This document shows, piece by piece, positions 23,088-44,585 of a stretch of 64,000 nucleotides of DNA. The translations under genes were made by a program, and so were the position numbers. A model generated the notes under the pieces. That model saw only the letters and a list, made by a program, of their open reading frames with translations, was not told the origin of the DNA and searched no databases. Positions within the stretch are counted from its first letter, which is position 1. The number at the start of each line of letters is the position of its first letter. The DNA is from a virus (Duplodnaviria; Heunggongvirae; Uroviricota; Caudoviricetes): the IMG/VR virus record IMGVR_UViG_3300025327_000015; one strand, 5' to 3'.

Positions 23088-24905
23088 TCAGCAGCTAAGG
23101 GCCGTTCCGAGGGCCGGGAATTCACCACTCGGGCAGATACCCTGAACCACCCAGAGAGCACCCTGTGCAGGGCCGAGACGAGCCACGTTCTCGAACGTCT
23201 CCCCGAAGAGCTGGTAGTCGTTCGTCGAGTTAAGCGTGGAGTCACGGACAATCCCGAGTTCGAGCGATCCACCATCAACATGGATAAACTCGCCCTCCGG
23301 GAACATCGCCCACTGAATGTCATCCGGGAAGTCGTCTAGAGCAGTGCCCCCTACTTCGTTGGCAAAGCCCTGAGACGTATCACTCCCGATGTCATCGAGA
23401 TACCACGTAACCGAGATGCCATAACGATCCAGAAGCGCCGCTGCCTGTGCCTGCGCCTGAACGCGATCGAACTGCGTCATCGCAAAGTCTGCAGCCAGCA
23501 GATCCGGAAGGTACTGAGGCAAAAGCACCCGGAAACGAGCATCCTGAGTCATGCGCAGACGGAAACGAATTGCCGCCTGTGCTTTCGTCAGTGCATGCAC
23601 AAGATCAGCGAATGCACCGAGAATTTCTGCCTGTGTAACACTGATCGAAAGTGCTTTGATCCGATCAAGCAAGTAACCCTCTGCGGAACGGGCATGTGCA
23701 GCCATCGTCAGATCGTTCTCATGCGCGATCTTCTCTGGCCACGCCCGCGCGTTGAGGTTTCCATATTCGCGGCAGTGAGAGATAATCGTGACTGCCGTTT
23801 CCGTATACGCCGGGCAAGTAAGGTCCTGACAGGACTTGGTAGCAAAGGTGCCACCAAGAGCATCATCGGACTCCTCGATCACCGTAATTGCCGAAGTAAT
23901 GTCACCGATGATCGTCGCCGTCGGGACGTTCACCCCACCACGATCCGCCTGAAAAGACGGGAGCGAATCACGCACAGGACGCGCCTGAGAAGCGAAATTC
24001 GGCATCGTGTAGAGCGGAGTCAGCGGAGCGCAGAGACCACCGGATGCGACCAGTGCATCACTGCCATAGACCCCAGGAATGTTATTCGGAACAACCTGGG
24101 CAATTCTCTCGGCATTAGCACCCCAATCGCTGGCGTCAAGCACACGCTCCTCCGGGAACGTGAAGTTCGCCATTGCGATCCGGATCTTTTCCTCGACACC
24201 ACCCTGTTGCTTGACAGGCGGACCGCGCCGCACTGCCGTTGTCTTCATTACCCGCGCCAAGGAAAGACGATCGAGAGGCTTTCCGGCACGGACGTCTTGC
24301 AGTCCTCCAGCAGCAACAAGAACACCGCTGGTGTTATCCGGAAGCTGTCGTTCTTTAGAAGGACGGGGCGGCTGCCGACGAAGAGCAGTCTTCTTAACCT
24401 TATTAGGCTTCTTCGTTTCGGGTTCCTTTTCAGCAGAAGCAGTCACTGAGACAGGAACTTCAACTTCAGCCTCCTCCTCCTCTTCAACCTCTTCCTCTGC
24501 TGTCTCTTCAGCAGTTAGTTCGGCAGACTCTTCACCGTCGCCTTCTTCACTGCCGTCACCCTCGTCACCATCATCACCGTCGCCGTCACCTTCATCGCCG
24601 TCGCCTTCAGACTCTTCAGCAACAGCAAGCTGAACTTTGCGACGTTCAGACAAGACCGACTTTCTTTCCTGATATGCGGTATGAGCATCAACCCGAGCCT
24701 TCTGCTCGGCAAGAATGCGTTCGATTTGCTCAACACCTTTTTCATATTGCGCAAGGACTTCTTCGGCCTCCATATCCTTGATGAAGTCCTCATCTTCTTG
24801 ATCAATCAACTCTGCAGCAATCTCATGTTCCTGAAGAAGATTCGCTAGTTCTTCATCAGAAAGCGAACTGAGATCTTCTGGAAGTTCTGGGAAAAGCGGG
24901 TCCAC
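23088..24905 (-). CDS. major capsid protein with fused acidic scaffold-like N-terminal domain
   Basis: N-terminal about 230 aa coiled-coil plus extreme acidic tract (EGDGDEGDGDGDDGDEGDGSEEGDGEE, EEEVEEEEEAEVE), C-terminal about 350 aa globular domain of major-capsid size. Confidence 0.4.
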   Translation of the reverse strand: MDPLFPELPEDLSSLSDEELANLLQEHEIAAELIDQEDEDFIKDMEAEEVLAQYEKGVEQIERILAEQKARVDAHTAYQERKSVLSERRKVQLAVAEESEGDGDEGDGDGDDGDEGDGSEEGDGEESAELTAEETAEEEVEEEEEAEVEVPVSVTASAEKEPETKKPNKVKKTALRRQPPRPSKERQLPDNTSGVLVAAGGLQDVRAGKPLDRLSLARVMKTTAVRRGPPVKQQGGVEEKIRIAMANFTFPEERVLDASDWGANAERIAQVVPNNIPGVYGSDALVASGGLCAPLTPLYTMPNFASQARPVRDSLPSFQADRGGVNVPTATIIGDITSAITVIEESDDALGGTFATKSCQDLTCPAYTETAVTIISHCREYGNLNARAWPEKIAHENDLTMAAHARSAEGYLLDRIKALSISVTQAEILGAFADLVHALTKAQAAIRFRLRMTQDARFRVLLPQYLPDLLAADFAMTQFDRVQAQAQAAALLDRYGISVTWYLDDIGSDTSQGFANEVGGTALDDFPDDIQWAMFPEGEFIHVDGGSLELGIVRDSTLNSTNDYQLFGETFENVARLGPAQGALWVVQGICPSGEFPALGTALSC

Positions 24906-25023
24906 TTCGTACTCCTTTCGACACGGTAAAAACTTCGCGTCGAAGTCCTGTGGACTCCGCGTAACGGATTAGCGCTATGCGCGTTCCTCGTCGAAGAAAT
25001 TAGAACAGACGCTGCGGTCGTTA

Positions 25024-25052
25024 CTTGCACTCAATCTAAAGCTGTGGTATAA
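25024..25052 (+). promoter_or_regulatory. sigma70-like promoter
   Basis: TTGCAC-17 nt-TATAAG. Confidence 0.3.
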
Positions 25053-25227
25053 GTGCCGAACTGCAAAGGCGACGGCCTGCGCAGGGGGTGGCACGAAGAG
25101 CCCTTCTCCGATGGGGCAAAGGCACTCCGGGGGAGACATCCCTACCCGATGGGGTAAACGGAGGTCCGGCGTTATCGATTACATAGCTAATCGGAGCGAC
25201 CGGTGGAGGGAGCTAGTCCCTCTCCCC

Positions 25228-25256
25228 ACTGAAAAGACCCGCTACGGCGGGTCTTT
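25228..25256 (+). terminator. Rho-independent terminator
   Basis: agacccgc-tacg-gcgggtct hairpin followed by TTTTCTTT. Confidence 0.55.
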
Positions 25257-25321
25257 TCTTTGATATCATTACTATCGGCTGGGCCGAAGAGCGTGGTTCA
25301 TCTCCTTATAAGAGAGAGGTC

Positions 25322-25372
25322 ATTGGTTCGAATCCAATCATTGCCTTGGGTGATGTAGCTCAGTGGTAGAGC
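25322..25372 (+). ncRNA. permuted tRNA-like module: T-arm + acceptor-3' strand, 2-3 nt loop, acceptor-5' strand + D-arm (candidate Y RNA tRNA-mimic domain)
   Basis: attgg-ttcgaat-ccaat then cattgcc / tt(g) / ggtgatg ta gctc agtggta gagc; the two acceptor strands pair 7/7 with two G-U. Confidence 0.45.
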
Positions 25373-25605
25373 GCTAAAGCTCCACACTCATTTCATGCCC
25401 GCCCTATACACTTTGATTCGCCTCCGGCAAGAGGCGATGAGAGATGGGCCGAAGAGGAATTGTTCTCACTGGTCAAAGCGGCAAGGCCCCGAAGTACGCC
25501 GCACGGAGCACTAGTGGCTCCGTAAGATCGATTCTTCACACCACGCCCTCTCTCTGTTAGATTTACTCCTGCGAATGGGTCGAAGTGAATGGTTCATCCG
25601 GTACT

Positions 25606-25690
25606 ACCGGGGTAGCTCAAGGGTAGAGCACTGGCTTAGAGCCAGAGGTTAGTGGTTCGAATCCACTCCTAGAACAACCATTGACATAAC
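25606..25690 (+). ncRNA. tRNA-like element (D-arm, anticodon-like hairpin with loop cttagag, T-arm) lacking a pairable acceptor stem
   Basis: gctc-aagggta-gagc; ctgg-cttagag-ccag; agtgg-ttcgaat-ccact; flanking 7-mers accgggg and cctagaa are not complementary. Confidence 0.3.
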
Positions 25691-25705
25691 ACATCCTTCG
25701 CTTTT

Positions 25706-26209
25706 ATGGGTTATCATCGGCCCATGCGGTCAGTTGAAGAGCGTTTCTGGGAGAAAGTAGATCGCTCAGGAGACTGCTGGCTTTGGATCGGCACAAAAGA
25801 CAAGCACTACGACTATGGTCGCTTTCGCATTGGAACAAAATCAACTGACAAGAAAGAGCGTGCTCACCGTGTAGCATGGATGTTGATTTTTGGCCCAATC
25901 CCAGATGGCATGTGGGTACTTCATCACTGTGATAGACCTGCCTGTGTTCGTCCAGAGCATCTCTTCCTCGGCACAAACTCAATGAATCAAAAAGATGCAT
26001 ATCGTAAAGGTAAACATGACTATCTTCACAAACAAGGTCGCAATAGCGGAGAAAAAAATGGAAGCTCGCGACTTACTAAAGAACAAGTTCTGGAAATACG
26101 TACAAGTCATAAGTCACAGTATGCGCTCGCAAAACGATTTGGAATCTCACAGCCAGCTATCTCATACATCCGATCAGGGAAGACCTGGCGACACTTGCTA
26201 GAGTGCTAA
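25706..26209 (+). CDS. HNH endonuclease with C-terminal HTH
   Basis: HRVAWMLIFGPIPDGMWVLHHCDRPACVRPEHLFLGTNSMN HNH_3 motif; similar to 8583..9038 product. Confidence 0.65.
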   Translation: MGYHRPMRSVEERFWEKVDRSGDCWLWIGTKDKHYDYGRFRIGTKSTDKKERAHRVAWMLIFGPIPDGMWVLHHCDRPACVRPEHLFLGTNSMNQKDAYRKGKHDYLHKQGRNSGEKNGSSRLTKEQVLEIRTSHKSQYALAKRFGISQPAISYIRSGKTWRHLLEC

Positions 26210-26334
26210 TTGCGAGTGGGCCGGAGGATCTACGGGTTATCTTCTGTCAAAAGACAACCCCGTATCCGTAATCACGCCCCTCGTCTGCTAATCTCCTGAG
26301 CGCGAGTGGGTCGAACGAGATTCGGTTCTCCCGT

Positions 26335-26390
26335 CATTGGTTCGATTCCAATCGCGCCCATATCACGGGCGCGTAGCTCAGTTGGTAGAC
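26335..26390 (+). ncRNA. permuted tRNA-like module upstream of rsr (candidate Y RNA tRNA-mimic domain)
   Basis: attgg-ttcgatt-ccaat cgcgccc a / tatcac / gggcgcg ta gctc agttggta ...; acceptor strands perfectly complementary; followed by tcctc-GGAA-gagga tetraloop hairpin. Confidence 0.45.
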
Positions 26391-26601
26391 GCAGAGTCCT
26401 CGGAAGAGGAACCCCCGAACTCACAACATATCCCTCGCGATTTGCATCGCTTTCTGTAGATGTGGTACAGTTACAACTGCTACTGAGCCGAAGGGTCAGT
26501 CGGTTATCTTGGCAATAAGAGCAGCCCGTGACGCTCGGGACACCCGACTCCCACACCATGCTCGTAGCTTCAAATCAACTCTTGCCGGGAGGTACAACAC
26601 G

Positions 26602-28182
26602 ATGTCTGATTATCTGACTCGCTACGGAACACGCGTCACGCCGCAGTCTGAGCGGATGCGTGAAGATCAGGTTCTCAACGAAGCTGGCGGCTTTGTTTGG
26701 GAGATCGACGCCTGGGCGCGGATGCGTCGTTTCCTAATTCTCGGAAGCGAAGGGGGATCGTATTACGCTTCCGAATTCCAGGCAACGAAGGATTCGGCTG
26801 CTGCTGTACGCCAGTGCATCAAGGAAGATGGTCTGCGTGCAGTAAAGGAGATCGTAGAAATCTCGCAGAAGGGCCGGGCTCCAAAGAATGATCCGGCACT
26901 CTTTGCGCTTGCCTGCGCGATTTCACTGGGTGATAAGGAAACGCGCTCGGCAGCTGCTGAGGCGCTACCTCTTGTCGCCCGTATTGGAACACATCTCTAT
27001 CATTTCGCCGCCTACGCGGAGACGATGCGCGGTTGGGGCCGGACGATGCGCTGGGCTGTTCAGAACTGGTATGACCGCAATCCCGAGCAGCTTGCACTTC
27101 AAGCGATCAAGTATCGTCAGCGAGATGGCTGGTCGCACCGTGATCTCTTGCGCCTAGCACATCCTTCTCGAAATGAAGAGACAGCTTCGCTCTTTAACTG
27201 GATCACGAAGGGTGTTCCAGAGGAAGGCAAATCTCTATCTGAAATCGTGGGAGGTTTTGAGCAGGCACAAAGCGCTACCACGCCACAGATAACGGCAAAT
27301 CTTGTCCGCGAGTATGGTCTACCACGCGAAGCACTCCAGACTGAGCATCTGAACTCGAAGGAAGTCTGGGCTGCGCTTCTAGAGATGCAGATGCCGATGA
27401 CGGCCATGCTACGTAATCTGGCCACCATGACACGAGTCGGAATTCTCGACTCGAATGATCATCGCAAGCTGGTTCTGAATGCCTTCGATAACCAGGAGGC
27501 GATCACAAACTCGCGTCTGCATCCGCTCGCCATTCTGATCGGAATGGAGACGTATGCACAGGGACACGGTATGCGTGGTCAGCATACTTGGAGCCCAATC
27601 GCTTCCATCGTGGACGCTCTCGACGGTGCTTTCTATAAGGCGTTCGGGAACGTGCAGCCTACTGGCAAGCGCCTACTCGTAGGTGTGGATGCTTCTGGAT
27701 CGATGCGAAGCGGAGTGATCGCAGGTGCTCCAGGAATGATGCCGGTTAAGGCAGCAATGGCAATGGCGCTCGTTTTCACTGCCACCGAGCAGGATGTCGA
27801 AACGGTGCTCTTCGATACCTCACTCTCGACATTCCCACTCTCTGCTCGACAGCGACTGGACGACGTTGTTCGTCGCCATCCAGGCCATGGACGAGGAACA
27901 GATGTCGCGCTTCCGATGCAATACGCAACAGCGAAGAACCGGCAGGTTGATGGCTTCGTTCTTCTAACGGATATGCAGACTTGGGCTGGTTATCAGCATC
28001 CAGCACAGGCGCTTCAGCAGTATCGCGAGCGTAGCGGTATTCCAGCACGCCTTGCCAGCGTCGCACTGATTGCTAATCGCTGGCAGGTGGCAGATCCACA
28101 AGATCCGCTAGCCTTCGAAGCAATCGGATTCGACACCGCTACACCAGAACTCGTTTCCGGCTTCGTTGCTGGTGAGTTCTAA
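26602..28182 (+). CDS. rsr: Ro60/Rsr ortholog (TROVE domain + vWA domain)
   Basis: Collinear similarity to human Ro60 throughout ([26 protein letters not shown] vs [75 protein letters not shown] MIDAS); GGGAGG RBS 7 nt upstream of ATG. Confidence 0.9.
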   Translation: [526 protein letters not shown]

Positions 28183-28355
28183 AGAAATCGGAGGATGCAT
28201 CTCCTGCCGAGACACAAGATGCATCCTCCGAGATATACGCGGGTAGCTCAGCCATGAAGACAATGCATCCTGCATATTTAGCAGGAATCATTGATGGTGA
28301 GGGCTCAATCTTTAATGGCCTCTTTGGGATGGGGCCATCATCCCTGTGATCAGCC

Positions 28356-28916
28356 ATGAAAAAAATCCCAACCATTTTTGAGCGCGACTGGGAGGGAGAT
28401 CGCTCGCGGGTTCTCAATCGAATTGTTCCCGGTTGCGAATGGGTATTCACTGGTGAGGGCATCGCTACGCGCAAATACGACGGCAGCGCTTGCATGGTCG
28501 AAGACGGTGTGCTCTGGAAGCGGCATGAGGTTCGTAAAGGAAAGCAAACTCCCGAGGACTTTCGTCTTGTTGAGGATGACTTGGAAACCGGCAAGACAGT
28601 CGGATGGATTCCCGTGAGCGACGGTCCGGAGGATAAATGGCATCGGGACGCTTTCGCCCGCGATATGACTCTGGCAGACGGAACCTATGAACTAGTTGGA
28701 CCAAAAGTTCAGGGCAATCCTGAGGGCTTCGAGCAGCACACTCTCATTCGTCATTCAGATGCTGAAACGTTTATCGTCTTGCGGCGTACTTTTGAAAGAA
28801 TCCGCGATTTGATCTCTGAACTCGATGTGGAAGGCTTCGTCTTCCAGCATCCTGACGGACGCATGGCGAAAATCAAAGGACGAGATTTCGGAATCAAACG
28901 TTCGAGTAAAGAATGA
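28356..28916 (+). CDS. small ATP-dependent nucleotidyltransferase, ligase family (KxDG ligase, RNA-ligase-like)
   Basis: Motif I KYDGSAC, motif IV EGFVFQ, motif V MAKIKGRD; 186 aa; stop overlaps next start (ATGA). Confidence 0.55.
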   Translation: MKKIPTIFERDWEGDRSRVLNRIVPGCEWVFTGEGIATRKYDGSACMVEDGVLWKRHEVRKGKQTPEDFRLVEDDLETGKTVGWIPVSDGPEDKWHRDAFARDMTLADGTYELVGPKVQGNPEGFEQHTLIRHSDAETFIVLRRTFERIRDLISELDVEGFVFQHPDGRMAKIKGRDFGIKRSSKE

Positions 28917-29284
28917 AACATTATACTCCTATAGGATGGATTTCTGAGCCAGAAGATGCGATTAAAGGCTGGGGTAACGAAGACGACTACAAAGATGTTC
29001 TTGAACAACTTAATACGACACCAGAAGATTTCCTATCAGCTGTCGTATATTCACTTACTTGGAATCTTAAAGACGCTGCTGCCTCGATTACAGGTATCTA
29101 CTGTGATCAATGGTGTGGAGTAGCTGGCAGCGGCGCCCCTCTTGAGACGCACGGTCTTCTCGCGATGACGGGAGAAGAGGGGAAGATAAATACTTGGTTT
29201 CAATGTGATAAACCTGAATGGGGAGTCGCAGCGACTTGGAAAGCCTTTGTAGAAAAGTTTGGGCTGCGAACGCAGGATGATTAA
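28913..29284 (+). CDS. hypothetical protein translationally coupled to ligase
   Basis: 123 aa; ATGA overlap with upstream gene. Confidence 0.35.
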   Translation: MKHYTPIGWISEPEDAIKGWGNEDDYKDVLEQLNTTPEDFLSAVVYSLTWNLKDAAASITGIYCDQWCGVAGSGAPLETHGLLAMTGEEGKINTWFQCDKPEWGVAATWKAFVEKFGLRTQDD

Positions 29285-29724
29285 CTCATGATTCTTGCGC
29301 GTTACATCCTACTTCTATACGGACCTGAGAAATCTAATAAAGAAACTGAAATACGTCTACCGCGTGTACTAGCAGACATGCCCGCATACCTAGAGGAGGC
29401 TGAGGAAAATCTGAATGATCTGCTTCCAGCAGACTTCAGAGTAGAGATTATTGAGAAATCTTAATGGTTAAATGGCGAAGCAAAAACACGATCCAGGAGT
29501 TATAAAAAGTAAGAAGAATCAGAAGAAACTGCCAAAAGACCTTCTCTGGAAAGAACGGAGGAAGCGGGCGTTGCCTCGGCTCTATCCCGGATGGGATGAG
29601 GATAAGTATCCACTTAGCGTTGTAAAAGCAGAACTCAAGCGCCGAATGATGTCCGAAGCCGAACGTCATACTTCTTCTTAGCCCGTGATGGGTTGCCCGT
29701 GAAGGGCCGAGCAAGGAGGGCAAG

Positions 29725-30003
29725 ATGCCCAAAGAAAGTGTGTACGGTTCTGTTCTTCCGCTCGATGAGTCTATTCCGGCTCATGAGTATGAGATGCAAC
29801 AGCCGATCATTGAAGTGCGCTGGGGCCGGTATCCAGAAAGCGATGTCCAGATCGTGACTCGGCGGAAAGGCTATGAGGTCGCGGTGCAAGAACCGATCAC
29901 ATGCGATTATGGCCTTTATGTCGATCTTGATCGTCCAGCGATCAATGATCTAATCCGTAAACTACGACGGGCTCGCGATCAGGCATTCGGTCGAGACGAA
30001 TAG
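29725..30003 (+). CDS. hypothetical protein
   Basis: 92 aa ORF, AAGGAGGG RBS upstream. Confidence 0.3.
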   Translation: MPKESVYGSVLPLDESIPAHEYEMQQPIIEVRWGRYPESDVQIVTRRKGYEVAVQEPITCDYGLYVDLDRPAINDLIRKLRRARDQAFGRDE

Positions 30004-30013
30004 AATCTGATTT

Positions 30014-30098
30014 GGAGGCTCGCAAGGCTGGCGTGCTCATCCGCCTTGAAAGCGGTGATGGTCGAAAGGCCGTACAGGTTCGATCCCTGTAGCCTCCG
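30014..30098 (+). tRNA. tRNA-Ser-like (anticodon UGA), class II with long variable arm
   Basis: Acceptor ggaggct/agcctcc, anticodon loop cttgaaa, variable hairpin ggtc-gaaa-ggcc, T-arm acagg-ttcgatc-cctgt. Confidence 0.5.
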
Positions 30099-30101
30099 CT
30101 T

Positions 30102-30184
30102 GGAGGGTCAAGTCTCAAGGAGAGACGGCGGGCTGCTAACCCGTTCGCGGTGCAAGCCGTGGGGTTCAAATCCTCGGCCCTCCG
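30102..30184 (+). tRNA. tRNA-Ser-like (anticodon GCU), class II
   Basis: Acceptor ggagggt/gccctcc (one G-U), anticodon stem cggg/cccg with loop ctgctaa, long variable arm, T-loop ttcaaat. Confidence 0.45.
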
Positions 30185-30310
30185 TGATAGAATTTCATTT
30201 CCGTGATAGGGGTGCATAGGGCTTTGGCGATCGTGCCCGCAGTCCGCGATTCGGGATGGTGACCTGAGCAGTTCGCGGTAAACGAGCGTCCTCTGGTGGA
30301 CCGGACAACC

Positions 30311-30336
30311 GGCCAACAAGAGCGGCTCTTGGAGCC
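30311..30336. terminator. bidirectional terminator hairpin between convergent genes
   Basis: aagagcggctc-ttgg-gagccgctctt perfect 11-bp stem, T-rich flank on minus strand. Confidence 0.45.
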
Positions 30337-30343
30337 GCTCTTG

Positions 30344-30730
30344 TTATTCAGGATATGTCTGATTCAGCCATTTGATACCACGTACTTGAATAATGAAAGC
30401 AATCTCTGACTGAGAAAGTCGTTTGCGCAGCATCTTTCGCTCACGATATCTGACATCACTTTCTCGTGAATCAATCAGATCATGGCAAGCTCTACAAAGA
30501 GGCACAATATTTGCATGTGCATTACGTACCATACGCAGATGCACAGGCTGCTTAAGAAACCATGATTCAGCGACAAGATGATGCCTGGTAAGTGGGCGCA
30601 CAAATGCGGGCCGAAGACACATTCGACAATGACCTTCAGCCCGCATTTTGTGTTCCGTCGTCTTCGGCGATTGCAGCGATACCGAAGGACGAGGAGCCCA
30701 GCGGTGCTCGATAACGAGCTTTCTGCTCAT
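30344..30730 (-). CDS. HNH endonuclease
   Basis: CRMC...TRHHLVAESWFLK...NIVPLCRACH. Confidence 0.55.
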   Translation of the reverse strand: MSRKLVIEHRWAPRPSVSLQSPKTTEHKMRAEGHCRMCLRPAFVRPLTRHHLVAESWFLKQPVHLRMVRNAHANIVPLCRACHDLIDSRESDVRYRERKMLRKRLSQSEIAFIIQVRGIKWLNQTYPE

Positions 30731-31179
30731 CCAAGAACCTTTCGCACCGCCGCCTCCGGCAACCAGTAAATCTTGTCAGACGGATTTTCGACGGCAGCCG
30801 TCAGCGCGACGGCAGCCAGAATATCACCGTCGAGCTTCGCCTTCTCAATCAGATACCAGCCGTAGCGCCGACGAATCTTGATTGGGATATCGGTGAGACG
30901 GACTCCTGCAACCGCCCCACCATTCCGGTCGGGCGTCACAGTGTCCTCCTTTGCGTTTAGCCCGAAAAGTCCTTGATGGGATTTTCGCTTTGGCGCTCGC
31001 AGTTATCCTGGAGCGTTTTTGCGATTGATCCTGCAAACTCGATACCGACCAACTCGTCTAGTAACGAGAAATCGAGTGTTATTCCCTCATGCGGGAATGT
31101 CGAGTAGGCCCAAGCTCTGGATGGCTTGAGCCTCAGATACAGGACTTCTCCGGTGTCATAACGCATGACGCTCATTGAC

Positions 31180-31249
31180 ACGGCTGGTAGGAATCGAACC
31201 CACTTCGTACCGGGTTGGAGCCGGACGAGACACCATGTCTCAGCCGTAT
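31180..31249 (-). tRNA. tRNA-Trp-like (anticodon CCA) with compact D-arm
   Basis: Acceptor acggctg/cagccgt perfect; anticodon stem ccgg/ccgg loop ctccaac; T-arm gtggg-ttcgatt-cctac. Confidence 0.45.
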
Positions 31250-31326
31250 AGTGGGCGGATTTTTCGAAGACCAGCACCGTCCAGCTGGCTTACGAACAGA
31301 TGCCTCGTGAGACATCTACCTTCTAG

Positions 31327-31402
31327 TAGCGCGCCTGGGAGTCGAACCCAGAGACTTCGGCTTATGAGGCCGACGCAGGAAGTCCGGTCCTGCTCGCGCG
31401 CA
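31327..31402 (-). tRNA. tRNA-Met (anticodon CAU)
   Basis: D-stem gcag/ctgc, anticodon stem tcggc/gccga loop ctcataa, T-arm ctggg-ttcgact-cccag, acceptor 6/7 bp with terminal mismatch. Confidence 0.55.
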
Positions 31403-31550
31403 TAACAACCGTACCAAAAACGGAGCCCTGACTCAACCGTGGAAGCACATCGCTGTCTAGTCCAGAGTTCGAGCCAGGGCTCCTTGACCAGTTTAGCGAC
31501 GGTAGATATACTTCACTCCCGTCTAGTCCATTTAACCGTGGAGGTATCTA

Positions 31551-32468
31551 ATGTGGTATGTGCTAACAGTTCTCGCTGGACTAATCATCGTAATAAGTTT
31601 GACGCTTGGATTGGTACTGGGCGGCTCTCGTGCATTTGAAGATAGAGCCGGTCGTCAACAGACGACACCCGATTGGCGCAAGATGGGATTCGCTATCGCA
31701 AGCGGAACCGCAGTTACATACGTTCTGTTGTCGATGCTATTCATCTGGCATTCTGTGGAAGCAGGACATGTCGGGCTAGTACGTGCGTTTGGTGCATATA
31801 CCGGCGTCAAAGAAGCAGGACTAGTTACAACTTGGCCATGGGAATCTATCGAAGAGGCCCGCATCCGCAATGCGTCTCATGAGTTGCTCATGGATGGCGG
31901 AGTCAATGGATCAGCCGCGAGTCAAGAATCACAAGAAGTATTTGTGGTTGCCACGATCAACTATTCACTAGAGAAATCGTGCGTGCAGGAGTTGTATACC
32001 AACTATGGAGCGGCGTATTACGAGACGATCATTGAACCAAGAGCGAAACAGCTATTCAAGGCGGAATCGGTGAAGTTCTCGGCAGTTGATATTCTGCCCA
32101 ATCGTGAGAAGATCCGGCGTGAAACACAGAGTGAATTAGCAAAGCAGTTGGATCAGTTCTGCGTTCGAGGACTGGATTTTCTTTTGACGAATGTCGGTTT
32201 TAGTCCAGAGTTCACTGCAGCTATCGAAGAGAAGCAGGTGGCGACACAGCAGGCCGCTGCTGAAAAGAACCGCGTAGAGATTGCCAGGCAGCAGGCTAAG
32301 CAAGTTGTCATCGCAGCGGAAGCGGACCGTAAAGCGTTCTTCAAGCGTCAGCGCAATCTGACTCCACTGCTCGTAGAATGGGAACGCATCCAGAAGTGGC
32401 AGCCTCAGATCATCTATCTCCCCAGTGACACGATCATCGGACTTCCTGGTCTAGAGAGTAATAGATGA
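31551..32468 (+). CDS. SPFH/band-7 (prohibitin/HflK-like) membrane protein
   Basis: N-terminal TM helix then VGLVRAFGAYTGV...VFVVATINYSL... SPFH core and C-terminal coiled-coil. Confidence 0.65.
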   Translation: MWYVLTVLAGLIIVISLTLGLVLGGSRAFEDRAGRQQTTPDWRKMGFAIASGTAVTYVLLSMLFIWHSVEAGHVGLVRAFGAYTGVKEAGLVTTWPWESIEEARIRNASHELLMDGGVNGSAASQESQEVFVVATINYSLEKSCVQELYTNYGAAYYETIIEPRAKQLFKAESVKFSAVDILPNREKIRRETQSELAKQLDQFCVRGLDFLLTNVGFSPEFTAAIEEKQVATQQAAAEKNRVEIARQQAKQVVIAAEADRKAFFKRQRNLTPLLVEWERIQKWQPQIIYLPSDTIIGLPGLESNR

Positions 32469-34382: not shown

Positions 34383-36128
34383 TCAGCTCGTGTTGCCATA
34401 TCTCTCTCCTAGTGCCTGTCGGAGACGCTGAGTCAACATGACTTTGCGCCGCTTACGCTTCCGATAGTTCGCAAGCTCATCGACATTGGCTGTCGCGACG
34501 AGCGCTTCGACTTCTTCTTTCCCACCAGAAGCGACAAGACGCATCTCCGTGCGAGGAACAGGATATCCCGGAATTGGCACCGCGAGAACGCCCTGCAACT
34601 CCAGTGCCCCGTTCTCCCTTCTCCAATCCCCCGACGGCGGATTGGCTCGAAGGTCACGGATCTTTTCTGCCGGGACATCGCTTCGGATCGCGCCCGAGAG
34701 CCAGATTCCTCGGCGACCATCGTGAGCACGAACGAAAGCAGCAACACAGCCAGTGTTGTCGTAGTGCTCTTGGGTCTTTACTGATCCATAGGTCAGTGGA
34801 GCATGAGGCGTTCCCACGGTGATCTTTCCAACTGCAAGACATTCATCTTCAGCAGTTTCAATCTCTCCTAGATGAAAGAACTTGTAGTCCGAATACGAGC
34901 GAGGAGGCTGCTGACAGATTCCTTCAAAGCCGGTATGACATTGACCCCAAACGGCAAGATGCCCAAAAACACGTCCATCCTCAGTAATTGTCAATGGACA
35001 AGGAAGATTTGGCTCTGGCATCTCAAACCAGGCTTTAGGGGGTTTAAGCGGGGCTTTGCCTGCGGCTGAAGCGGTAAGAACTTCTTGTTCAACGTGAATA
35101 AATCCAATCCAATGCATGACTCCGCTGGCGGTAATAATCGAAGCCTCTGGGAAGGCTGCAAATGGAACAACTGTCGCTCCCATAATTGAGCCTTCAATAC
35201 CAGTTAGATAGCCTCCTCCGCCAAGAAGAAGCGTCATCAAATCCAATTCTTCAGGATCAACAGGTTCAAGCGTATCCGGATCCAAGAGAGAGACATTCGT
35301 CACCGAGAGATCGAGTGAGACTCCTCCACCATTTTCAAGCAATCGCACACCATTTTCTCCGGTTTCAGAACCATCAAAACTCCCCTTTGCCCAGATCACA
35401 ACAGCATCATCAGGCAAATCTCCGAGATCAAAACCATCTTCGTTAAATTCAGAAGAAGGAATACGATTAATTTTCTCAATTCTTCCTCCAACTTCTGATC
35501 CCTTATGTCCTTCTTCGCTAACTATCTGAACCATTAGAGGAAGCGGAAGTTCTCGATCATCAATCTTTCCCGGCATGAGATAACGCTTATCAGCAGTAGG
35601 ATGACCCTCGACAGCGAGCACACCTTTCCACGGTGTACGAGTTTCTACATCTTCATCAGATGATGTATCTTCAGATGTAACAGTAACAGTGACACTTGGA
35701 TTAAATGTCTCCAAATTACTGGATGTCATAAAAATCTGTGGCGCAGTAGATACAGATGAAGAAATAGGACCAATGTAATACCAAAACTGATCAGTCATAT
35801 TCTCATCCATCATCTTGCGCATATGGCGCTCAGCCTCTTCATGTGTGTCATAGCAAGCGCCTTCTACCGGAGTAGAAGTACCTGATTCATGGACGCAGTG
35901 CTTTCCATCTTTCATTCTGATCTCATAGGAATGCTCGGCCATCGTCTCCATGCTCTCTTTTGCTGTCTCCATCACCGTATCTCCGACTACGGACGTATTT
36001 AGTCTCTCTGCTCGATAGAGAGCACGTTGTTGCCGTCTTGCTTTCTCACGAGAGTCATGGCAGCCATGATTTCCGCTCGGGCCATATACACAATACTTCT
36101 CACCTTGCTTGCGAATCGTGTACGGCAT
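34383..36128 (-). CDS. head morphogenesis protein (candidate prohead protease/minor head protein)
   Basis: Start revised to ATG at 36128 (MPYTIRKQGEKY...) so that it abuts portal end; 581 aa; position downstream of portal. Confidence 0.3.
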   Translation of the reverse strand: MPYTIRKQGEKYCVYGPSGNHGCHDSREKARRQQRALYRAERLNTSVVGDTVMETAKESMETMAEHSYEIRMKDGKHCVHESGTSTPVEGACYDTHEEAERHMRKMMDENMTDQFWYYIGPISSSVSTAPQIFMTSSNLETFNPSVTVTVTSEDTSSDEDVETRTPWKGVLAVEGHPTADKRYLMPGKIDDRELPLPLMVQIVSEEGHKGSEVGGRIEKINRIPSSEFNEDGFDLGDLPDDAVVIWAKGSFDGSETGENGVRLLENGGGVSLDLSVTNVSLLDPDTLEPVDPEELDLMTLLLGGGGYLTGIEGSIMGATVVPFAAFPEASIITASGVMHWIGFIHVEQEVLTASAAGKAPLKPPKAWFEMPEPNLPCPLTITEDGRVFGHLAVWGQCHTGFEGICQQPPRSYSDYKFFHLGEIETAEDECLAVGKITVGTPHAPLTYGSVKTQEHYDNTGCVAAFVRAHDGRRGIWLSGAIRSDVPAEKIRDLRANPPSGDWRRENGALELQGVLAVPIPGYPVPRTEMRLVASGGKEEVEALVATANVDELANYRKRKRRKVMLTQRLRQALGERYGNTS

Positions 36129-39708: not shown

Positions 39709-40287
39709 TCATACCATCTGCTTTCGCAGGTTATTTAATCTCCAATTTGCCGCGTCTAAGCGTTCAGGAGTATCCACACGTCCGATCTGCGACCAATGAT
39801 GGACAAATGCGTAGGAATATAGGATGCGCGTTTGAATACCCAACATGCGTGCTTTCTCCGATAACCAGATATCCGCGTAGTAATCAATCTCGGGCCAGAA
39901 ACCGATTCGTTCGTACTGATCGCGGCGGAGGATGGGAACACGAGTGAAATGAACAAAAGCTCCATCCTCACCATCTTCCCAGTTATCGAATGTGCCATCG
40001 GCAGAGAAGTTCAGAATCTTGGCGGCAGGAAGTTCATCATAGAGTCCAAGCCAGTGCAAAGGCTTTTCCCACCAGCCGGGCAAAGGCTCCAGATCATCTG
40101 CACCGAAATGCACGGTCTCTCCACTCGATTGCTTATAGCCCTTGTTGCAAGCTCCGGGCCAGGTTGGTTCGTCCTTCACCACGATCAGCTCGTGCTCCAC
40201 TTCCGTCGTCGCGCAGTAGGCGGCCACGATCTTCTCTAGAGATTCCTCTCGGCCAGAAATGGTAGGCATTATGATCGAGAGTTTCAT
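39709..40287 (-). CDS. GT-A fold glycosyltransferase (GT2-like)
   Basis: MKLSIIMPTISGREESLEKIVAAY start and HFGADDLEP DXD-like motif. Confidence 0.5.
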   Translation of the reverse strand: MKLSIIMPTISGREESLEKIVAAYCATTEVEHELIVVKDEPTWPGACNKGYKQSSGETVHFGADDLEPLPGWWEKPLHWLGLYDELPAAKILNFSADGTFDNWEDGEDGAFVHFTRVPILRRDQYERIGFWPEIDYYADIWLSEKARMLGIQTRILYSYAFVHHWSQIGRVDTPERLDAANWRLNNLRKQMV

Positions 40288-40615
40288 CCACCAAGATCCT
40301 TGATATTAATTCTTCGCACTTGCTCACTAAGAACAGCACTGGAAAGTTCCCAGGATGACAACTTCTCAGCGTCCTGGATTCCTAACCTCTTTGCATCCTC
40401 AAGATCACGAATACGTCGATGACGTGCAACTGAACGATTTAGAAGTTCTATCCACGATAGAGTATTCCAGTTAGAAGTTCCTAACTTCTTTTCTTCCATT
40501 CGCAACTTAGGTTCTTCTTTCTGACGATACTGTTTAGCTTGAAGCCGCGAAAGCTCTTGATTAGAGAGTTTCTCTAACTCTTCGCGGAGCTGTCTTTTTC
40601 CCCGCCTGAGCAGAT

Positions 40616-41221
40616 TCATCGCAGCACGTAGCAGGCCGCGAAGCAATCGGGCCGCCAAGGACTAGAGCAGGGATAGGAGCCGACGTGCTCGGCCTTGAAG
40701 CCCGCCTCTCCCGCCAGCGTGATGAACTCTCGTTTCGTCCACCATTCGGTAATGGGAACCTCGGACTGAGAGTGTGTCGAGAGGTTGCCGTCGTAGACCA
40801 TTACCCGCGCGTTTCCCTCTTTGAGCACTCGCCGCAGCCGAAGAAGAATACCAATGGGATCGTGGACGTGCTGGAGAACACCCGCGCAGTGAACATGATC
40901 TACCTGCGGCAGCTCGTCGTCGGCAAAGAGAGCGGTAGCCCTCCCGCGCAAGCCGTACATCTCTAGGCGTTCGCTCGTCGTTTGCAGAGCAAGCCAAGAA
41001 ATATCCGCGAAGTAGACGTGCGCCGCGCCATAGCGAAGAAAAAGCAAAGTGTCATGGCCGGGGCCGCAGCCGTAGTCGAGAATCGTCTGGCCGGGGTACT
41101 CGACAGGCATCAGCCCGAGCAAGTCCGGATAGCGAGAATTTCTCTCCTGGAGCGCCGCCTCAGATTCTTCGGCGTCCAAATAGGGGCCGCCGACTTGATG
41201 AGTGGCCCAGAAAGTTGTCAT
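40616..41221 (-). CDS. class I SAM-dependent methyltransferase
   Basis: ILDYGCGPGHDTLLF motif I. Confidence 0.6.
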   Translation of the reverse strand: MTTFWATHQVGGPYLDAEESEAALQERNSRYPDLLGLMPVEYPGQTILDYGCGPGHDTLLFLRYGAAHVYFADISWLALQTTSERLEMYGLRGRATALFADDELPQVDHVHCAGVLQHVHDPIGILLRLRRVLKEGNARVMVYDGNLSTHSQSEVPITEWWTKREFITLAGEAGFKAEHVGSYPCSSPWRPDCFAACYVLR

Positions 41222-43642: not shown

Positions 43643-43693
43643 TCATGAGAGGATAATTCCCCTAGCGGTCGGATCATCGAGTCTGTGGACTTT

Positions 43694-44583: not shown

Positions 44584-44585
44584 GA

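What the first reader, a model, noticed from the sequence alone, without database searches (positions are those of the whole stretch)
26602..28182. Phage-encoded full-length Ro60/Rsr (TROVE + vWA) ortholog
The 527-aa product aligns end to end with human Ro60. Matching segments include [92 protein letters not shown] and [16 protein letters not shown]. Ro60/Rsr binds misfolded or damaged noncoding RNAs and Y RNAs. As I recall (not verified here), Rsr with Y-like RNAs has been reported in a few mycobacteriophages, so it is rare in phages. Here it sits among tRNAs, a KxDG ligase with RNA-ligase-type motifs and tRNA-like noncoding modules, which suggests a phage RNA-maintenance or anti-ribotoxin cassette.
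Basis: partly seen in the sequence, partly recalled or inferred. Interest (0 to 1): 0.85.

Follow-up and report, generated by a model that had tools for sequence, protein, structure and literature searches.

The report
Phage Ro60 gene with Y-RNA array
A ~109-kb uncultivated tailed phage carries a genuine, intact Ro60/Rsr RNA-binding ring protein preceded by six Y-RNA-like genes (three of them tRNA mimics); phage Ro60 with Y RNAs is an already described kind of system, so this is a well-equipped new example, not a discovery.

Summary
ORF 26602-28182 (+) encodes a 526-aa full-length Ro60/Rsr ortholog: TROVE 1.5e-45, vWA_Ro60 2.3e-44, and end-to-end matches to D. radiodurans Rsr (1.4e-110) and Xenopus/human Ro60 (~1e-107). 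The predicted fold has TM 0.82-0.85 to 1YVP/2I91. The MIDAS residues and K170/R174/H187 are conserved. The window is clearly a tailed phage.

The "rare in phages" framing is overstated. Ro-like proteins are annotated in 356 GenBank phage records, have their own PHROG, and occur in at least 77 IMG/VR contigs. Phage Y RNAs were reported in 2014, and a phage Ro60-Y RNA-PNPase complex was characterised in 2025.

Each has a stem/CGAA-bulge/stem Ro-binding core. Two are YrlA-type tRNA mimics, one is a normal-order tRNA mimic that ARAGORN miscalls tRNA-Leu, and three are plain hairpins. A covariance model built without window sequences recovers all six, and covariation is strong.

The neighbouring KxDG enzyme is an RLIG1-family RNA ligase, but the linkage is sporadic (1 of 80 related loci) and no end-healing enzyme was found.

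Verdict: new member of a known kind; moderate-low interest.

The parts
26602..28182 (+). rsr: Ro60/Rsr ortholog, 526 aa (TROVE HEAT-repeat ring + vWA with MIDAS D363/S365/S367/T433/D457; K170, R174, H187 conserved)
26587..26592 (+). GGGAGG ribosome-binding site, 9 nt before the ATG
   Evidence: sequence
25275..25405 (+). Y module M1: YrlA-type (Ro-binding stem with CGAA bulge; T-arm, closed acceptor-like hairpin, D-arm)
   Evidence: R1 92.5 bits, E 9e-23, with a model built without window sequences; Rfam YrlA partial hit 33.7 bits; covariation
25439..25553 (+). Y module M2: Ro-binding stem/CGAA bulge/stem with a non-tRNA-like apical domain
   Evidence: R1 23.5 bits; fold; motif scan
25571..25701 (+). 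Y module M3: Ro-binding stem enclosing a tRNA-like domain in normal D-arm, anticodon-like arm, T-arm order; ARAGORN calls 25605-25675 'tRNA-Leu(tag)'
   Evidence: R1 20.6 bits; orthologous modules in L004/L007/L008, called Ser(aga) in L007/L008 and not called in L004; Rfam tRNA match covers only positions 6-65
25706..26209 (+). HNH_3 homing-endonuclease gene inserted exactly in the spacer between M3 and M4 (starts 5 nt after M3, stops 3 nt before M4); absent from relatives
26212..26284 (+). Y module M4: minimal 73-nt hairpin with a CGGA bulge
   Evidence: R1 29.4 bits with filters off; fold z = -2.8
26302..26438 (+). Y module M5: YrlA-type tRNA mimic
   Evidence: R1 66.3 bits, E 9e-16; Rfam YrlA partial hit 29.3 bits
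26479..26568 (+). Y module M6: plain Y-like hairpin ending 33 nt before the rsr start codon (probable 5' leader of rsr)
   Evidence: R1 32.7 bits; a module at the same position just upstream of rsr in L004, L006, L007, L008 and L070
25231..25258 (+). 12-bp GC-rich hairpin followed by a T run, immediately upstream of the array (terminator-like; separates the array from the divergent capsid gene region)
28356..28916 (+). RLIG1-family 5'->3' RNA ligase, 186 aa, KxDG with K40 (28473-28475); accessory neighbour, not conserved with rsr
   Evidence: phrog_14301 5.7e-61; PDB 9c6l Yasminevirus RLIG1 2.4e-14 with the catalytic Lys aligned; Pfam RLIG1 below cut-off; co-occurrence
30014..30184 (+). two type-II tRNA-Ser genes (tga, gct)
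31177..31402 (-). tRNA-Trp(cca) and tRNA-Met(cat)

Best explanation
The ORF is a functional phage-encoded Ro60/Rsr. It is a ring of HEAT-like repeats closed by a vWA domain, and it is expressed together with an upstream, co-oriented array of six Y-RNA-like genes.

Each Y module presents the same Ro-binding core: a variable 5-bp closing stem, a bulged U, a GRGY/RYYC 4-bp stem, an asymmetric internal loop (5' CGAA, 3' ~ACAYCAY), and an inner stem followed by GGUUAUC. By analogy with solved Ro-Y RNA complexes, this core docks on the outer face of the ring at the K170/R174 helix, while the central cavity (H187) threads 3' ends of misfolded or damaged RNAs.

The variable apical domains act as adaptors. 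They comprise two permuted YrlA-type tRNA mimics, one normal-order tRNA mimic and three simple hairpins. They would tether or gate Ro toward host factors, most likely PNPase (as in the RYPER complex and Thermus phage phiLo) and tRNA-recognising enzymes. In this way the phage would reprogramme host structured-RNA decay and quality control during infection.

Shown here: protein identity, fold and residues; the existence, structure, conservation and rsr linkage of the six RNAs. Inferred: Ro-Y binding, co-transcription and processing, and the host partners. The adjacent RLIG1-type ligase is an accessory RNA-repair gene acquired by this phage and is not part of the conserved unit.
For: Protein: (TROVE, vWA_Ro60, phrog_850; E 1e-110 to Rsr). 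One search gives Foldseek TM 0.82-0.85 to 1yvp, 2i91, 1yvr and 9nep. Searches show K170, R174, H187 and MIDAS D363/S365/S367/T433/D457 aligned and invariant in 21 relatives.

Phage context: capsid, portal, terminase and tape-measure genes, and the same locus on independent ~109-kb JGI and ENA contigs plus a shorter 21-kb Logan contig.

RNAs: the motif TGRGYCGRA occurs 6 times on the + strand in 1.2 kb against 4 elsewhere in 64 kb, and the modules share a common fold. Modules are 11-fold enriched on the rsr strand within 1.5 kb upstream across 80 loci, and the unselected 3' CAY signature occurs in 58% against 3.9% of background hits. Covariation: 24 of 28 pairs carry compensatory changes; 93.9% of cells are paired against 72.9% in shuffles and <=48.6% in slid controls; 0/500 shuffles reach the observed values. 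Across 78 modules the inner stem is 95% paired. Model R1, built without window sequences, scores the six modules at 92.5, 66.3, 32.8, 29.4, 23.5 and 20.6 bits, with the next best hit at 6 bits.

The same RNAs lie upstream of Ro in cultured phages BearBQ, Bxz1 and SparkleGoddess and next to rsr in 67 cellular loci.

Literature: the CGAA stem-bulge-stem is the recognised Ro-binding signature, and phage Ro60 binds such RNAs and host PNPase (PMC12135203). YrlA tRNA mimicry and the presence of at least 2 Y RNAs per species are reported in PMC4201824.
Against: No expression, binding or processing data exist for this phage. The Rfam YrlA model reaches only 33.7 and 29.3 bits (gathering score 69) and matches only the tRNA-like part. 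The NCBIfam Rsr equivalog score of 494 is below its cut-off of 900. The AF2 model is of moderate confidence (pLDDT 76), and residues 164-209, which include the K170/R174/H187 helix, fall below 50. The functional assignment of K170/R174/H187 comes from memory of the Xenopus mutagenesis literature and was not re-verified here. The host is unknown (terminase <=36% identical to any cultured phage), so the presence of a PNPase partner cannot be checked. No promoter was identified for the array.
Confidence: 0.8

Rival explanations
1. Dedicated anti-ribotoxin tRNA-repair cassette. Ro60, the tRNA-mimic Y RNAs, the RLIG1-type ligase and the nearby tRNAs would act together to capture, repair or replace tRNAs cut by host anticodon nucleases.
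For: An RLIG1-family ligase lies 174 nt downstream on the same strand, with its catalytic Lys aligned. RLIG1 homologs from viruses and bacteria seal tRNA halves in the anticodon loop in vitro (PMC11494293). Three unrelated ligase families (RtcB, Rnl2-type, RLIG1) each appear once next to phage rsr among 109 flanking ORFs. Bacteria have rsr-yrlBA-rtcBA operons induced by tRNA fragments (PMC7790460). tRNA genes flank rsr here and in many related loci. The idea is already proposed for jumbo phages (PMC7824862).
Against: The ligase is absent from the closest relatives, which keep the Ro-plus-array unit (L004, L006, L007, L008, L070). It is present within 3.5 kb of rsr in only 1 of 80 other loci (L030). 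The 25 GenBank phages with this ligase are a different set from the Ro-carrying phages by genus and genome size, as far as the listed records show. An ATP-dependent 5'-P/3'-OH ligase needs end-healing after metal-independent anticodon nucleases, and no kinase, phosphatase or 2H phosphoesterase was found among the ~25 ORFs scanned. Only 64 of ~109 kb was visible.
Confidence: 0.2
2. Host-factor sequestration or decoy. The multi-copy Y RNAs, with or without Ro, mainly act as sponges. In one version, Ro-Y RNPs soak up host PNPase and attenuate it, as proposed for Thermus phage phiLo. In another, the tRNA-like domains act as competitive inhibitors of tRNA-targeting nucleases. This overlaps with the best explanation and differs in placing inhibition, not RNA quality control, as the selected function.
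For: phiRo60 with Yrl RNAs binds T. thermophilus PNPase and attenuates its activity (PMC12135203). Hughes et al. suggest that the YrlA tRNA-like domain could competitively inhibit an anticodon nuclease (PMC7790460). High module copy number (6 here, up to 8 in relatives) and three distinct tRNA-mimic or hairpin architectures fit a stoichiometric decoy role.
Against: There is no direct evidence here. Arrays of 4-6 modules also occur in cellular rsr loci (L098, L093, L108), so multiplicity is not phage-specific. The central-cavity residue H187 and the MIDAS motif are conserved, which argues that the substrate-threading function is retained and the protein is not a pure scaffold.
Confidence: 0.3
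3. The upstream repeats are not Y RNAs. They would instead be degenerate tRNA genes or pseudogenes, terminators or repeat elements that happen to lie near rsr.
For: ARAGORN calls one of them a tRNA. The Rfam tRNA model hits M3 at 42.9 bits. The Rfam YrlA gathering score is not reached. Single-sequence folding z-scores are modest, from -1.3 to -2.8.
Against: The tRNA match lacks the acceptor stem (model positions 6-65), and the orthologous modules receive different anticodon identities or no call at all. All six share a non-tRNA closing stem, CGAA bulge and CAY core. The strand-specific association with rsr is 11-fold enriched over 80 viral loci and holds in 67 cellular loci. Every helix shows strong compensatory covariation.
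Confidence: 0.03
4. The locus is bacterial (a host rsr operon or an assembly chimera), not phage-encoded.
For: The closest cellular Rsr proteins (Chloroflexota, Armatimonadota and Acidobacteriota MAGs) are about as similar (<=53%) as the closest cultured-phage proteins (47%).
Against: The gene lies between the major capsid gene (23088-24905) and the portal and terminase genes, inside a 64-kb stretch of phage genes. The identical arrangement was assembled independently in JGI, ENA and Logan data, on two ~109-kb contigs and one 21-kb contig. Relatives with 56-78% identity sit in equivalent phage contexts.
Confidence: 0.02

Closest known systems
Thermus phage phiLo phiRo60 with Yrl1/Yrl2 (Hu et al. 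2025, NAR, PMC12135203)
   Same: A phage-encoded Ro60 ring protein, with Y-like RNAs encoded immediately upstream on the same strand. These RNAs were recognised by a stem-bulge-stem carrying a CGAA motif. The proposed engagement of host PNPase is also shared.
   Different: phiLo has two Yrl RNAs; this phage has six modules, three of them with tRNA-like domains. The protein did not surface among the sequence hits here, so it is a distant relative. Nothing has been tested biochemically for the window phage.
Bacterial Rsr with YrlA/YrlB (Salmonella, M. smegmatis) and actinophage 'Ro-like RNA binding protein' (Bxz1 gp220, BearBQ gp43)
   Same: The protein has the same architecture (42-47% identity to the phage proteins). 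M1 and M5 have the YrlA layout: T-arm, closed acceptor-like hairpin and D-arm inside a Ro-binding stem. The same model R1 finds 2 modules upstream of Bxz1 gp220 and BearBQ gp43.
   Different: There are more modules (6 against 2). The Rfam YrlA gathering score is not reached, as is also the case for Bxz1 and BearBQ. There is no RtcB/RtcA/RtcR; an unrelated RLIG1-type ligase is present instead.
Deinococcus radiodurans Rsr with Yrn1/Yrn2 and the RYPER (Ro-Y RNA-PNPase) machine
   Same: This is the best PDB sequence match (2nvo, 1.4e-110). Several Y RNAs are encoded upstream of rsr as a cluster. According to PMC4201824, Yrn1 has its D and T arms in the opposite orientation to YrlA, with an anticodon-arm-like stem-loop between them; M3 here has that layout.
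   Different: The window combines both tRNA-mimic orientations in one array. No PNPase interaction is known. The phage context is different.
Metazoan Ro60 with Y RNAs (1YVP, 9NEN)
   Same: End-to-end homology (E ~1e-107) and the same fold (TM 0.82-0.85). K170/R174/H187 fall at identical positions. The 5' strand GGGYCGAA resembles the metazoan GGUCCGA, and the GGUUAUC that follows resembles the GGGUUAUC of human Y4 (recalled from memory, not tested).
   Different: The Rfam metazoan Y_RNA model gives no hit at E<=5. The 3' strand and bulge geometry differ. The apical domains are tRNA-like.
RLIG1 / C12orf29 5'->3' RNA ligase family (Yasminevirus RLIG1, 9C6L)
   Same: The neighbouring 186-aa protein shares the KxDG motif, with its Lys aligned to the catalytic K73 (E 2.4e-14). 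It matches phrog_14301 'RNA ligase' over its full length.
   Different: It is much shorter (186 aa against 277-325 aa). The Pfam RLIG1 score is below the gathering threshold (18.4 against 25). The downstream catalytic Glu residues were not checked.

Membership tests
Ro60 / Rsr (TROVE + vWA ring protein) | TROVE domain above Pfam gathering score | tested here: met
   PF05731, 156.6 bits against cut-off 23, E 1.5e-45
Ro60 / Rsr (TROVE + vWA ring protein) | C-terminal Ro60-type vWA domain | tested here: met
   PF25045, 151.7 bits against cut-off 27.7; residues 357-522 cover profile positions 1-165 of 165
Ro60 / Rsr (TROVE + vWA ring protein) | Full-length collinear homology to experimentally solved Ro60/Rsr | tested here: met
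   2nvo 1.4e-110 (13-525), 1yvp 2.1e-107 (14-521), 9nen 2.1e-106 (15-522)
Ro60 / Rsr (TROVE + vWA ring protein) | Ring-shaped HEAT-repeat + vWA fold | tested here: met
   The AF2 model (pLDDT 76, pTM 0.71; residues 164-209 low confidence) superposes on 1yvp, 2i91, 1yvr and 9nep with TM 0.82-0.85 over ~530 columns
Ro60 / Rsr (TROVE + vWA ring protein) | MIDAS motif DxSxS...T...D in the vWA domain | tested here: met
   D363-A-S365-G-S367, T433 and D457 are all invariant in 21 relatives
Ro60 / Rsr (TROVE + vWA ring protein) | Y-RNA-binding (K170, R174) and central-cavity (H187) residues of Xenopus Ro60 | tested here: met
   [18 protein letters not shown] aligns with Xenopus KYKQRNGWSHKDLLRLSH at the same numbering and is invariant in A1. 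The functional roles of these residues are recalled from the mutagenesis literature and were not verified here.
Ro60 / Rsr (TROVE + vWA ring protein) | Partner Y RNA(s) encoded next to the gene | tested here: met
   Six modules at 25275-26568 on the same strand
Ro60 / Rsr (TROVE + vWA ring protein) | Binds Y RNA and misfolded RNA | not testable with these tools
   Needs EMSA or RIP
NCBIfam NF041674 RNA-bind_Rsr (equivalog) | Score above the curated equivalog cut-off (900 bits) | tested here: not met
   494.2 bits, E 3.8e-148, full-length match 3-525. The cut-off defines a narrow bacterial equivalog, so this protein is a diverged family member and not an NCBI-defined equivalog.
YrlA (Rfam RF02553) | Rfam gathering score (69 bits) | tested here: not met
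   M1 33.7 bits and M5 29.3 bits, matching only model positions 23-86 of 114. The Ro-linked RNAs of Bxz1 and BearBQ also fail, so the Rfam model is narrow.
YrlA (Rfam RF02553) | Architecture: Ro-binding stem enclosing T-arm, closed acceptor-like hairpin and D-arm | tested here: met
   M1 and M5 align at full length to R1 (92.5 and 66.3 bits). All five helices are supported by covariation.
YrlA (Rfam RF02553) | Encoded adjacent to rsr | tested here: met
Y RNA-like (Yrl) in the sense of Hu et al. 2025 | 5'-3' stem flanking a bulge with a conserved CGAA motif, upstream of the Ro60 gene | tested here: met
   CGAA in M1, M2, M3, M5 and M6; CGGA in M4
Metazoan Y RNA (Rfam RF00019) | Match to the covariance model | tested here: not met
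   No RF00019 hit at E<=5 in 24900-31600
RLIG1 5'->3' RNA ligase (neighbour gene) | Pfam PF17720 gathering score | tested here: not met
   18.4 bits against cut-off 25
RLIG1 5'->3' RNA ligase (neighbour gene) | KxDG motif with the catalytic Lys aligned to a solved RLIG1 | tested here: met
   K40 of KYDG aligns with the Lys that is Met in the K73M mutant 9c6m; E 2.4e-14 to 9c6l (PMC11494293)
RLIG1 5'->3' RNA ligase (neighbour gene) | ATP- and Mg-binding glutamates (human E195, E250) | not tested
   The alignment to 9c6l covers only query residues 20-137
T4-type tRNA repair system (Pnkp + RNA ligase) | End-healing polynucleotide kinase/phosphatase accompanying the ATP-dependent ligase | tested here: not met
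   None found among the neighbours or 20 larger ORFs of the window. About 45 kb of the genome lies outside the window.

The most novel reading that the evidence does not exclude
The six-module array would be a polyvalent RNA device. A single precursor would yield several Ro-docking RNAs whose different heads (permuted tRNA mimic, normal-order tRNA mimic with an anticodon-like loop, plain hairpins) each capture a different host factor, such as PNPase, tRNA-modifying or tRNA-processing enzymes, or tRNA-targeting defence nucleases. In this phage it would work together with an acquired RLIG1-type ligase as an anti-defence system that protects the translation apparatus. M6, lying in the rsr leader, would additionally allow Ro to autoregulate its own mRNA.
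Probability: 0.15. Interest if true: 0.7.

Novelty: new member of a known kind. Interest (0 to 1): 0.35.

Why it matters
Ro60-Y RNA particles are conserved from bacteria to humans, where Ro60 is a major lupus and Sjögren autoantigen, yet their role in viruses is barely understood. This locus adds no new principle. It does offer an unusually rich natural example: six Y modules of three architectures next to an intact Ro60, with a homing endonuclease inserted neatly between modules and an RLIG1-type RNA ligase alongside.

The survey done here has practical use. A simple signature (N5-U-GRGY-CGRA ... CAY-RYYC-N5') and a covariance model find unannotated Y RNAs upstream of Ro genes in cultured, genetically tractable phages (BearBQ, Bxz1, SparkleGoddess) and in about 150 viral and cellular loci, where Rfam's YrlA model fails. 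It also shows that arrays of 4-8 modules are common in one phage clade.

The analysis corrects a likely annotation error, since tRNA finders call the tRNA-like domain of a Y RNA as a tRNA gene.

Tried and rejected
1. Megablast of 24000-32000 against GenBank phages gave no match, and the terminase is <=36% identical to any cultured phage. The host therefore remains unknown. Chloroflexota and Armatimonadota MAGs hold the closest cellular Rsr (<=53%), which is only a weak hint.

2. A single-protein scan of IMG/VR found nothing; a scan with an alignment was needed.

3. My first generic stem-CGRA-stem scan was far too permissive, giving dozens of hits window-wide, and was replaced by a stricter signature. 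That stricter scan mispaired M1, which has only a 3-bp outer stem; the model R1 placed it correctly.

4. A possible seventh module 'M0' at ~25086 (TGGCACGAAGAG) was rejected because R1 with filters off scores nothing there. No module lies downstream of rsr either.

5. The crude inner-stem pairing test discriminated only weakly between modules and background. It was replaced by alignment-based covariation.

6. The supplementary tables of Chen et al. 2014, which list phage YrlA RNAs, are not held. I therefore could not check how many Y RNAs per phage they reported.

7. A literature search found no description of 6-8-module phage Y-RNA arrays, but the library is incomplete.

8. The ligase as a conserved partner of phage Ro60 was rejected.

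9. The longer TTG start (26509) for rsr was rejected because it overlaps M6 and is not supported by homologs.
Full report
OBSERVATION. The ORF exists as described. It has an ATG at 26602 and a TAA stop at 28180-28182 on the + strand, giving a 526-aa product (527 codons with the stop). A GGGAGG ribosome-binding site lies 9 nt upstream. Pfam gives TROVE (156.6 bits, E 1.5e-45) and the Ro60-specific vWA domain (151.7 bits, E 2.3e-44), both far above their cut-offs. phmmer against all PDB chains returns only Ro60 proteins, aligned end to end: D. radiodurans Rsr 2nvo at 1.4e-110, Xenopus Ro60 1yvp at 2.1e-107 and human RO60 9nen at 2.1e-106. An AlphaFold2 model built on 21 relatives (pLDDT 76) superposes on 1yvp, 2i91, 1yvr and 9nep with TM 0.82-0.85 over ~530 columns.

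CONSERVED RESIDUES. The MIDAS residues D363-x-S365-x-S367, T433 and D457 are present and invariant in the 21 relatives. The most conserved helix, [18 protein letters not shown], aligns with Xenopus KYKQRNGWSHKDLLRLSH at identical numbering. As a result K170 and R174 (Y-RNA binding) and H187 (central cavity) are retained; those functional roles are recalled from the Xenopus mutagenesis literature. One caveat: the NCBIfam Rsr equivalog model matches at full length (E 3.8e-148) but scores 494 bits against a cut-off of 900. This is a diverged family member, not an NCBI-defined bacterial equivalog.

PHAGE CONTEXT. The window is a tailed phage. A major head protein gene (23088-24905, -) lies immediately upstream, and a tape-measure gene, tail-fibre gene, portal gene (34383-36302) and large terminase gene (47196-48734) are all present. 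The identical protein sits in the same arrangement on independently assembled ~109-kb contigs from JGI and ENA, and on a shorter 21-kb contig from Logan. The phage is remote from all cultured phages: there is no megablast match, and the terminase is <=36% identical. The closest cellular Rsr proteins (<=53%) come from Chloroflexota, Armatimonadota and Acidobacteriota MAGs, which is only a weak host hint.

HOW RARE IS IT? Not very. tblastn finds a full-length relative in 356 of 50,697 GenBank phage records: 212 Mycobacterium, 115 Streptomyces, then Gordonia, Microbacterium, Rhodococcus, Agrobacterium, Sinorhizobium, Vibrio and Myxococcus. Most are annotated 'Ro-like RNA binding protein'. The family has its own PHROG (phrog_850, E 2.2e-79). 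Two peptide patterns alone retrieved 77 IMG/VR viral loci. In the literature, Chen et al. 2014 reported YrlA-type Y RNAs next to Ro60 in more than 250 bacteria and phages (PMC4201824). Iyer et al. 2021 list the TROVE protein with its tRNA-like partner among phage RNA-repair systems (PMC7824862). Hu et al. 2025 solved the Ro60 of Thermus phage phiLo, identified two upstream Y-like RNAs by their CGAA stem-bulge-stem, and showed binding to and attenuation of host PNPase (PMC12135203).

THE NONCODING ARRAY: ANATOMY. The more informative part of the locus is the 1.7 kb between the capsid gene and rsr. The motif TGRGYCGRA occurs six times on the + strand between 25280 and 26492, against four times in the other 62 kb. 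Folding each candidate gives one shared anatomy:
- a variable 5-bp closing stem (AGAGA/UCUCU, GCGAA/UUCGC, GCGAG/CUCGU, GCGAG/CUCGC, GCUAC/GUAGC, and only GGC/GCC in M1);
- a bulged U;
- a 4-bp GRGY/RYYC stem;
- an asymmetric internal loop with CGAA (CGGA in M4) on the 5' side and ~ACAYCAY on the 3' side;
- a variable inner stem followed by GGUUAUC-like sequence.

This is the signature used in the literature for Ro-binding Y-like RNAs.

THE SIX MODULES. Their R1 coordinates are M1 25275-25405, M2 25439-25553, M3 25571-25701, M4 26212-26284, M5 26302-26438 and M6 26479-26568. M1 and M5 carry a YrlA-type permuted tRNA mimic (T-arm, closed acceptor-like hairpin, D-arm). Rfam's YrlA model hits exactly that part but stays below threshold (33.7 and 29.3 bits against a gathering score of 69). 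M3 carries a tRNA-like domain in normal order (D-arm, anticodon-like arm, T-arm), the orientation described for D. radiodurans Yrn1 in PMC4201824. ARAGORN calls it 'tRNA-Leu(tag)'. However, the Rfam tRNA match lacks the acceptor stem (positions 6-65), and the orthologous modules in L007 and L008 are called Ser(aga). It is therefore a mimic and not a tRNA gene. M2, M4 and M6 are plain hairpins. M6 ends 33 nt before the rsr start codon, so it probably lies in the rsr leader.

ARE THE MODULES REAL? Four lines of evidence say yes.

(i) Association. In 80 related viral loci, a strict signature scan finds 1.64 modules per kb on the rsr strand within 1.5 kb upstream, against 0.15 per kb elsewhere or on the other strand.

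(ii) An unselected feature. The trinucleotide CAY directly precedes the 3' closing stem in 58% of the upstream modules, against 3.9% of background hits.

(iii) Covariation. An alignment of 19 YrlA-type modules from diverse loci gives an RNAalifold structure of 28 pairs, 24 of which carry compensatory changes. In that alignment 93.9% of cells are paired, against 72.9% in column shuffles and <=48.6% when partners are slid, and 0 of 500 shuffles reach any measure. All five helices carry double changes, including the four that played no part in selecting the sequences. On a model-guided alignment of 78 modules of all types, the inner stem is 95% paired and the 4-bp stem is 100% paired and covaries (GGGC/GCCC, GGGU/AUCC, GAGC/GCUC). 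That alignment leans toward the model.

(iv) An independent model. The covariance model R1 was built from 16 modules, none from the window. It scores the six window modules at 92.5, 66.3, 32.8, 29.4, 23.5 and 20.6 bits. The next best hit in the region is 6 bits, and nothing else in 64 kb is found apart from tRNA T-loops.

HOW UNUSUAL IS THE ARRAY? R1 finds two unannotated modules upstream of Ro in Gordonia phage BearBQ and in mycobacteriophage Bxz1. It finds about five, interleaved with tRNAs, in Streptomyces phage SparkleGoddess. Across the viral loci the per-locus count is mostly 1-3. The window's own clade (L004-L008, L070, at 56-78% protein identity) has 6-8 in a collinear order. Cellular rsr loci average about 2 but reach 5-6 (L098, L093, L108). 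Six modules is therefore at the high end of a continuum and is not a new category. I found no paper describing arrays of this size, but the searchable library is incomplete and the relevant 2014 supplement is not held.

THE HNH INSERTION. An HNH_3 homing-endonuclease gene (25706-26209) sits exactly in the M3-M4 spacer. It starts 5 nt after M3 and stops 3 nt before M4, and it is absent from all relatives. It is a mobile insertion that leaves the RNAs intact.

THE LIGASE AND THE 'CASSETTE' IDEA. The 186-aa protein at 28356-28916 matches phrog_14301 'RNA ligase' over its full length (5.7e-61). Its only solved relative is Yasminevirus RLIG1 (9c6l, E 2.4e-14), and K40 of its KYDG aligns with the catalytic lysine, which is Met in the mutant entry 9c6m. 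Pfam RLIG1 is below threshold (18.4 against 25). RLIG1-family enzymes, including viral and bacterial ones, seal tRNA halves with 5'-P/3'-OH ends in the anticodon loop in vitro (PMC11494293).

The pairing of Ro and Y RNAs with an RNA ligase echoes the bacterial rsr-yrlBA-rtcBA operon, which is induced by tRNA fragments (PMC7790460). Among 109 ORFs flanking rsr in ~72 viral loci, RtcB, an Rnl2-type ligase and RLIG1 each appear once. The association is thus recurrent and convergent, but sporadic.

Against a conserved cassette:
- the closest relatives keep Ro plus the array without the ligase;
- only 1 of 80 other loci has this ligase nearby (L030);
- the 25 GenBank phages with the ligase are a different set from the Ro phages;
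- no kinase, phosphatase or phosphoesterase healing enzyme was found among the ~25 ORFs scanned, although ~45 kb of the genome lies outside the window.

The real tRNA genes nearby (Ser x2, Trp, Met) are typical, since Ro loci often sit beside phage tRNA clusters.

MECHANISM. Shown: an intact Ro60 with conserved RNA-binding and MIDAS residues, and six structured, conserved, rsr-linked RNAs that carry the recognised Ro-binding core. Inferred from solved Ro-RNA complexes and from the D. radiodurans, Salmonella and phiLo work:
- the closing-stem/CGAA-bulge region of each Y module docks on the outer surface of the ring at the K170/R174 helix;
- the central cavity threads 3' ends of misfolded or damaged RNAs;
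- the apical domains act as adaptors or gates toward host PNPase and tRNA-recognising enzymes, so that the phage retunes host structured-RNA decay and quality control.

Whether the selected benefit is quality control, PNPase sequestration or decoying of tRNA-targeting nucleases cannot be decided from sequence. I rank the generic Ro-Y RNP model at 0.8, the sequestration/decoy emphasis at 0.3 (it overlaps with the first), and a dedicated tRNA-repair cassette at 0.2.

VERDICT. Its rarity claim and its high interest score are not justified, because phage Ro60 with Y RNAs is annotated, catalogued and now structurally characterised. This is a new member of a known kind. It is notable for a six-module Y-RNA array that combines both known tRNA-mimic orientations, a homing endonuclease nested between modules, and an accessory RLIG1-type ligase. 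Interest: 0.35.

Noticed in passing
window 51091-51756 (+): A 221-aa ORF with RF-1 (1e-24) and PCRF (1.1e-10) domains, i.e. a phage-encoded, truncated class-I peptide-chain release factor homolog. The relative L004 carries an ARAGORN 'tRNA-Pyl(cta)' amber-suppressor-like tRNA at 5842-5913. This may hint at stop-codon manipulation in this phage group.
   Followed up: no
window 25605-25675 (+): ARAGORN's 'tRNA-Leu(tag)' is the tRNA-like domain of Y module M3. The acceptor stem is poor, the Rfam match covers only positions 6-65, and the counterparts in L007 and L008 are called tRNA-Ser(aga). Automated annotation would miscount this as a phage tRNA.
   Followed up: yes
window 25706-26209 (+): An HNH_3 homing endonuclease with a C-terminal HTH is inserted precisely in the 510-nt gap between Y modules M3 and M4. 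It is absent from every related locus. A second HNH gene lies at 30344-30730 (-).
   Followed up: partly
window modules M1-M6; alignment A2 columns ~19-29: All six modules, tRNA-like or not, have a G-UU(A/C)UC element just after the inner stem (consensus UCGGUUAUC, several columns invariant in 19 sequences). From memory, human Y1, Y4 and Y5 have GAGUUAUC or GGGUUAUC/U at the equivalent place after GGUCCGA. The Rfam metazoan Y_RNA model nevertheless gives no hit.
   Followed up: partly
window 28190-28229 (+): A 13-bp perfect hairpin (GGAGGAUGCAUCU ... AGAUGCAUCCUCC) with a 14-nt loop begins 8 nt after the rsr stop codon and has no T run. It could be a 3' stabiliser or processing site between rsr and the ligase gene.
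   Followed up: no
window 25231-25258: A 12-bp GC-rich hairpin followed by a T run lies immediately before the first Y module, in the divergent region between the capsid gene (-) and the array (+). It is terminator-like, and what it terminates is unclear.
   Followed up: no
L084 2245-2465 (Gordonia phage BearBQ), L085 2196-2445 (Bxz1), L086 291-1835 (Streptomyces phage SparkleGoddess): Cultured phages have clear Y-RNA modules upstream of their Ro genes (R1 up to 110.8 bits). None is annotated in GenBank and none reaches Rfam's YrlA gathering score.
   Followed up: partly
L098 3001-3904, L093 3731-4477, L108 3786-4584: In some Chloroflexota/Anaerolineae MAG contigs, arrays of 3-6 Y modules lie downstream of rsr instead of upstream. 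These short contigs could themselves be phage-derived.
   Followed up: no
window 39709-45790 (-): A cluster of three glycosyltransferase-like genes, a SAM methyltransferase and an asparagine-synthase-like gene, possibly for virion or DNA glycosylation or another modification. Other genes seen: a Clp_N-domain protein (53258-53833), a vWA protein (51941-52876), a DNA N6/N4 methylase (49575-50471) and an SPFH/Band_7 protein (31551-32468, also present in L006).
   Followed up: no
L030 977-1537 (+): This is the only other viral locus with the same RLIG1-type ligase (45% identity). The ligase lies ~2 kb upstream of rsr, unlike the downstream position in the window, so it looks like an independent juxtaposition.
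   Followed up: no
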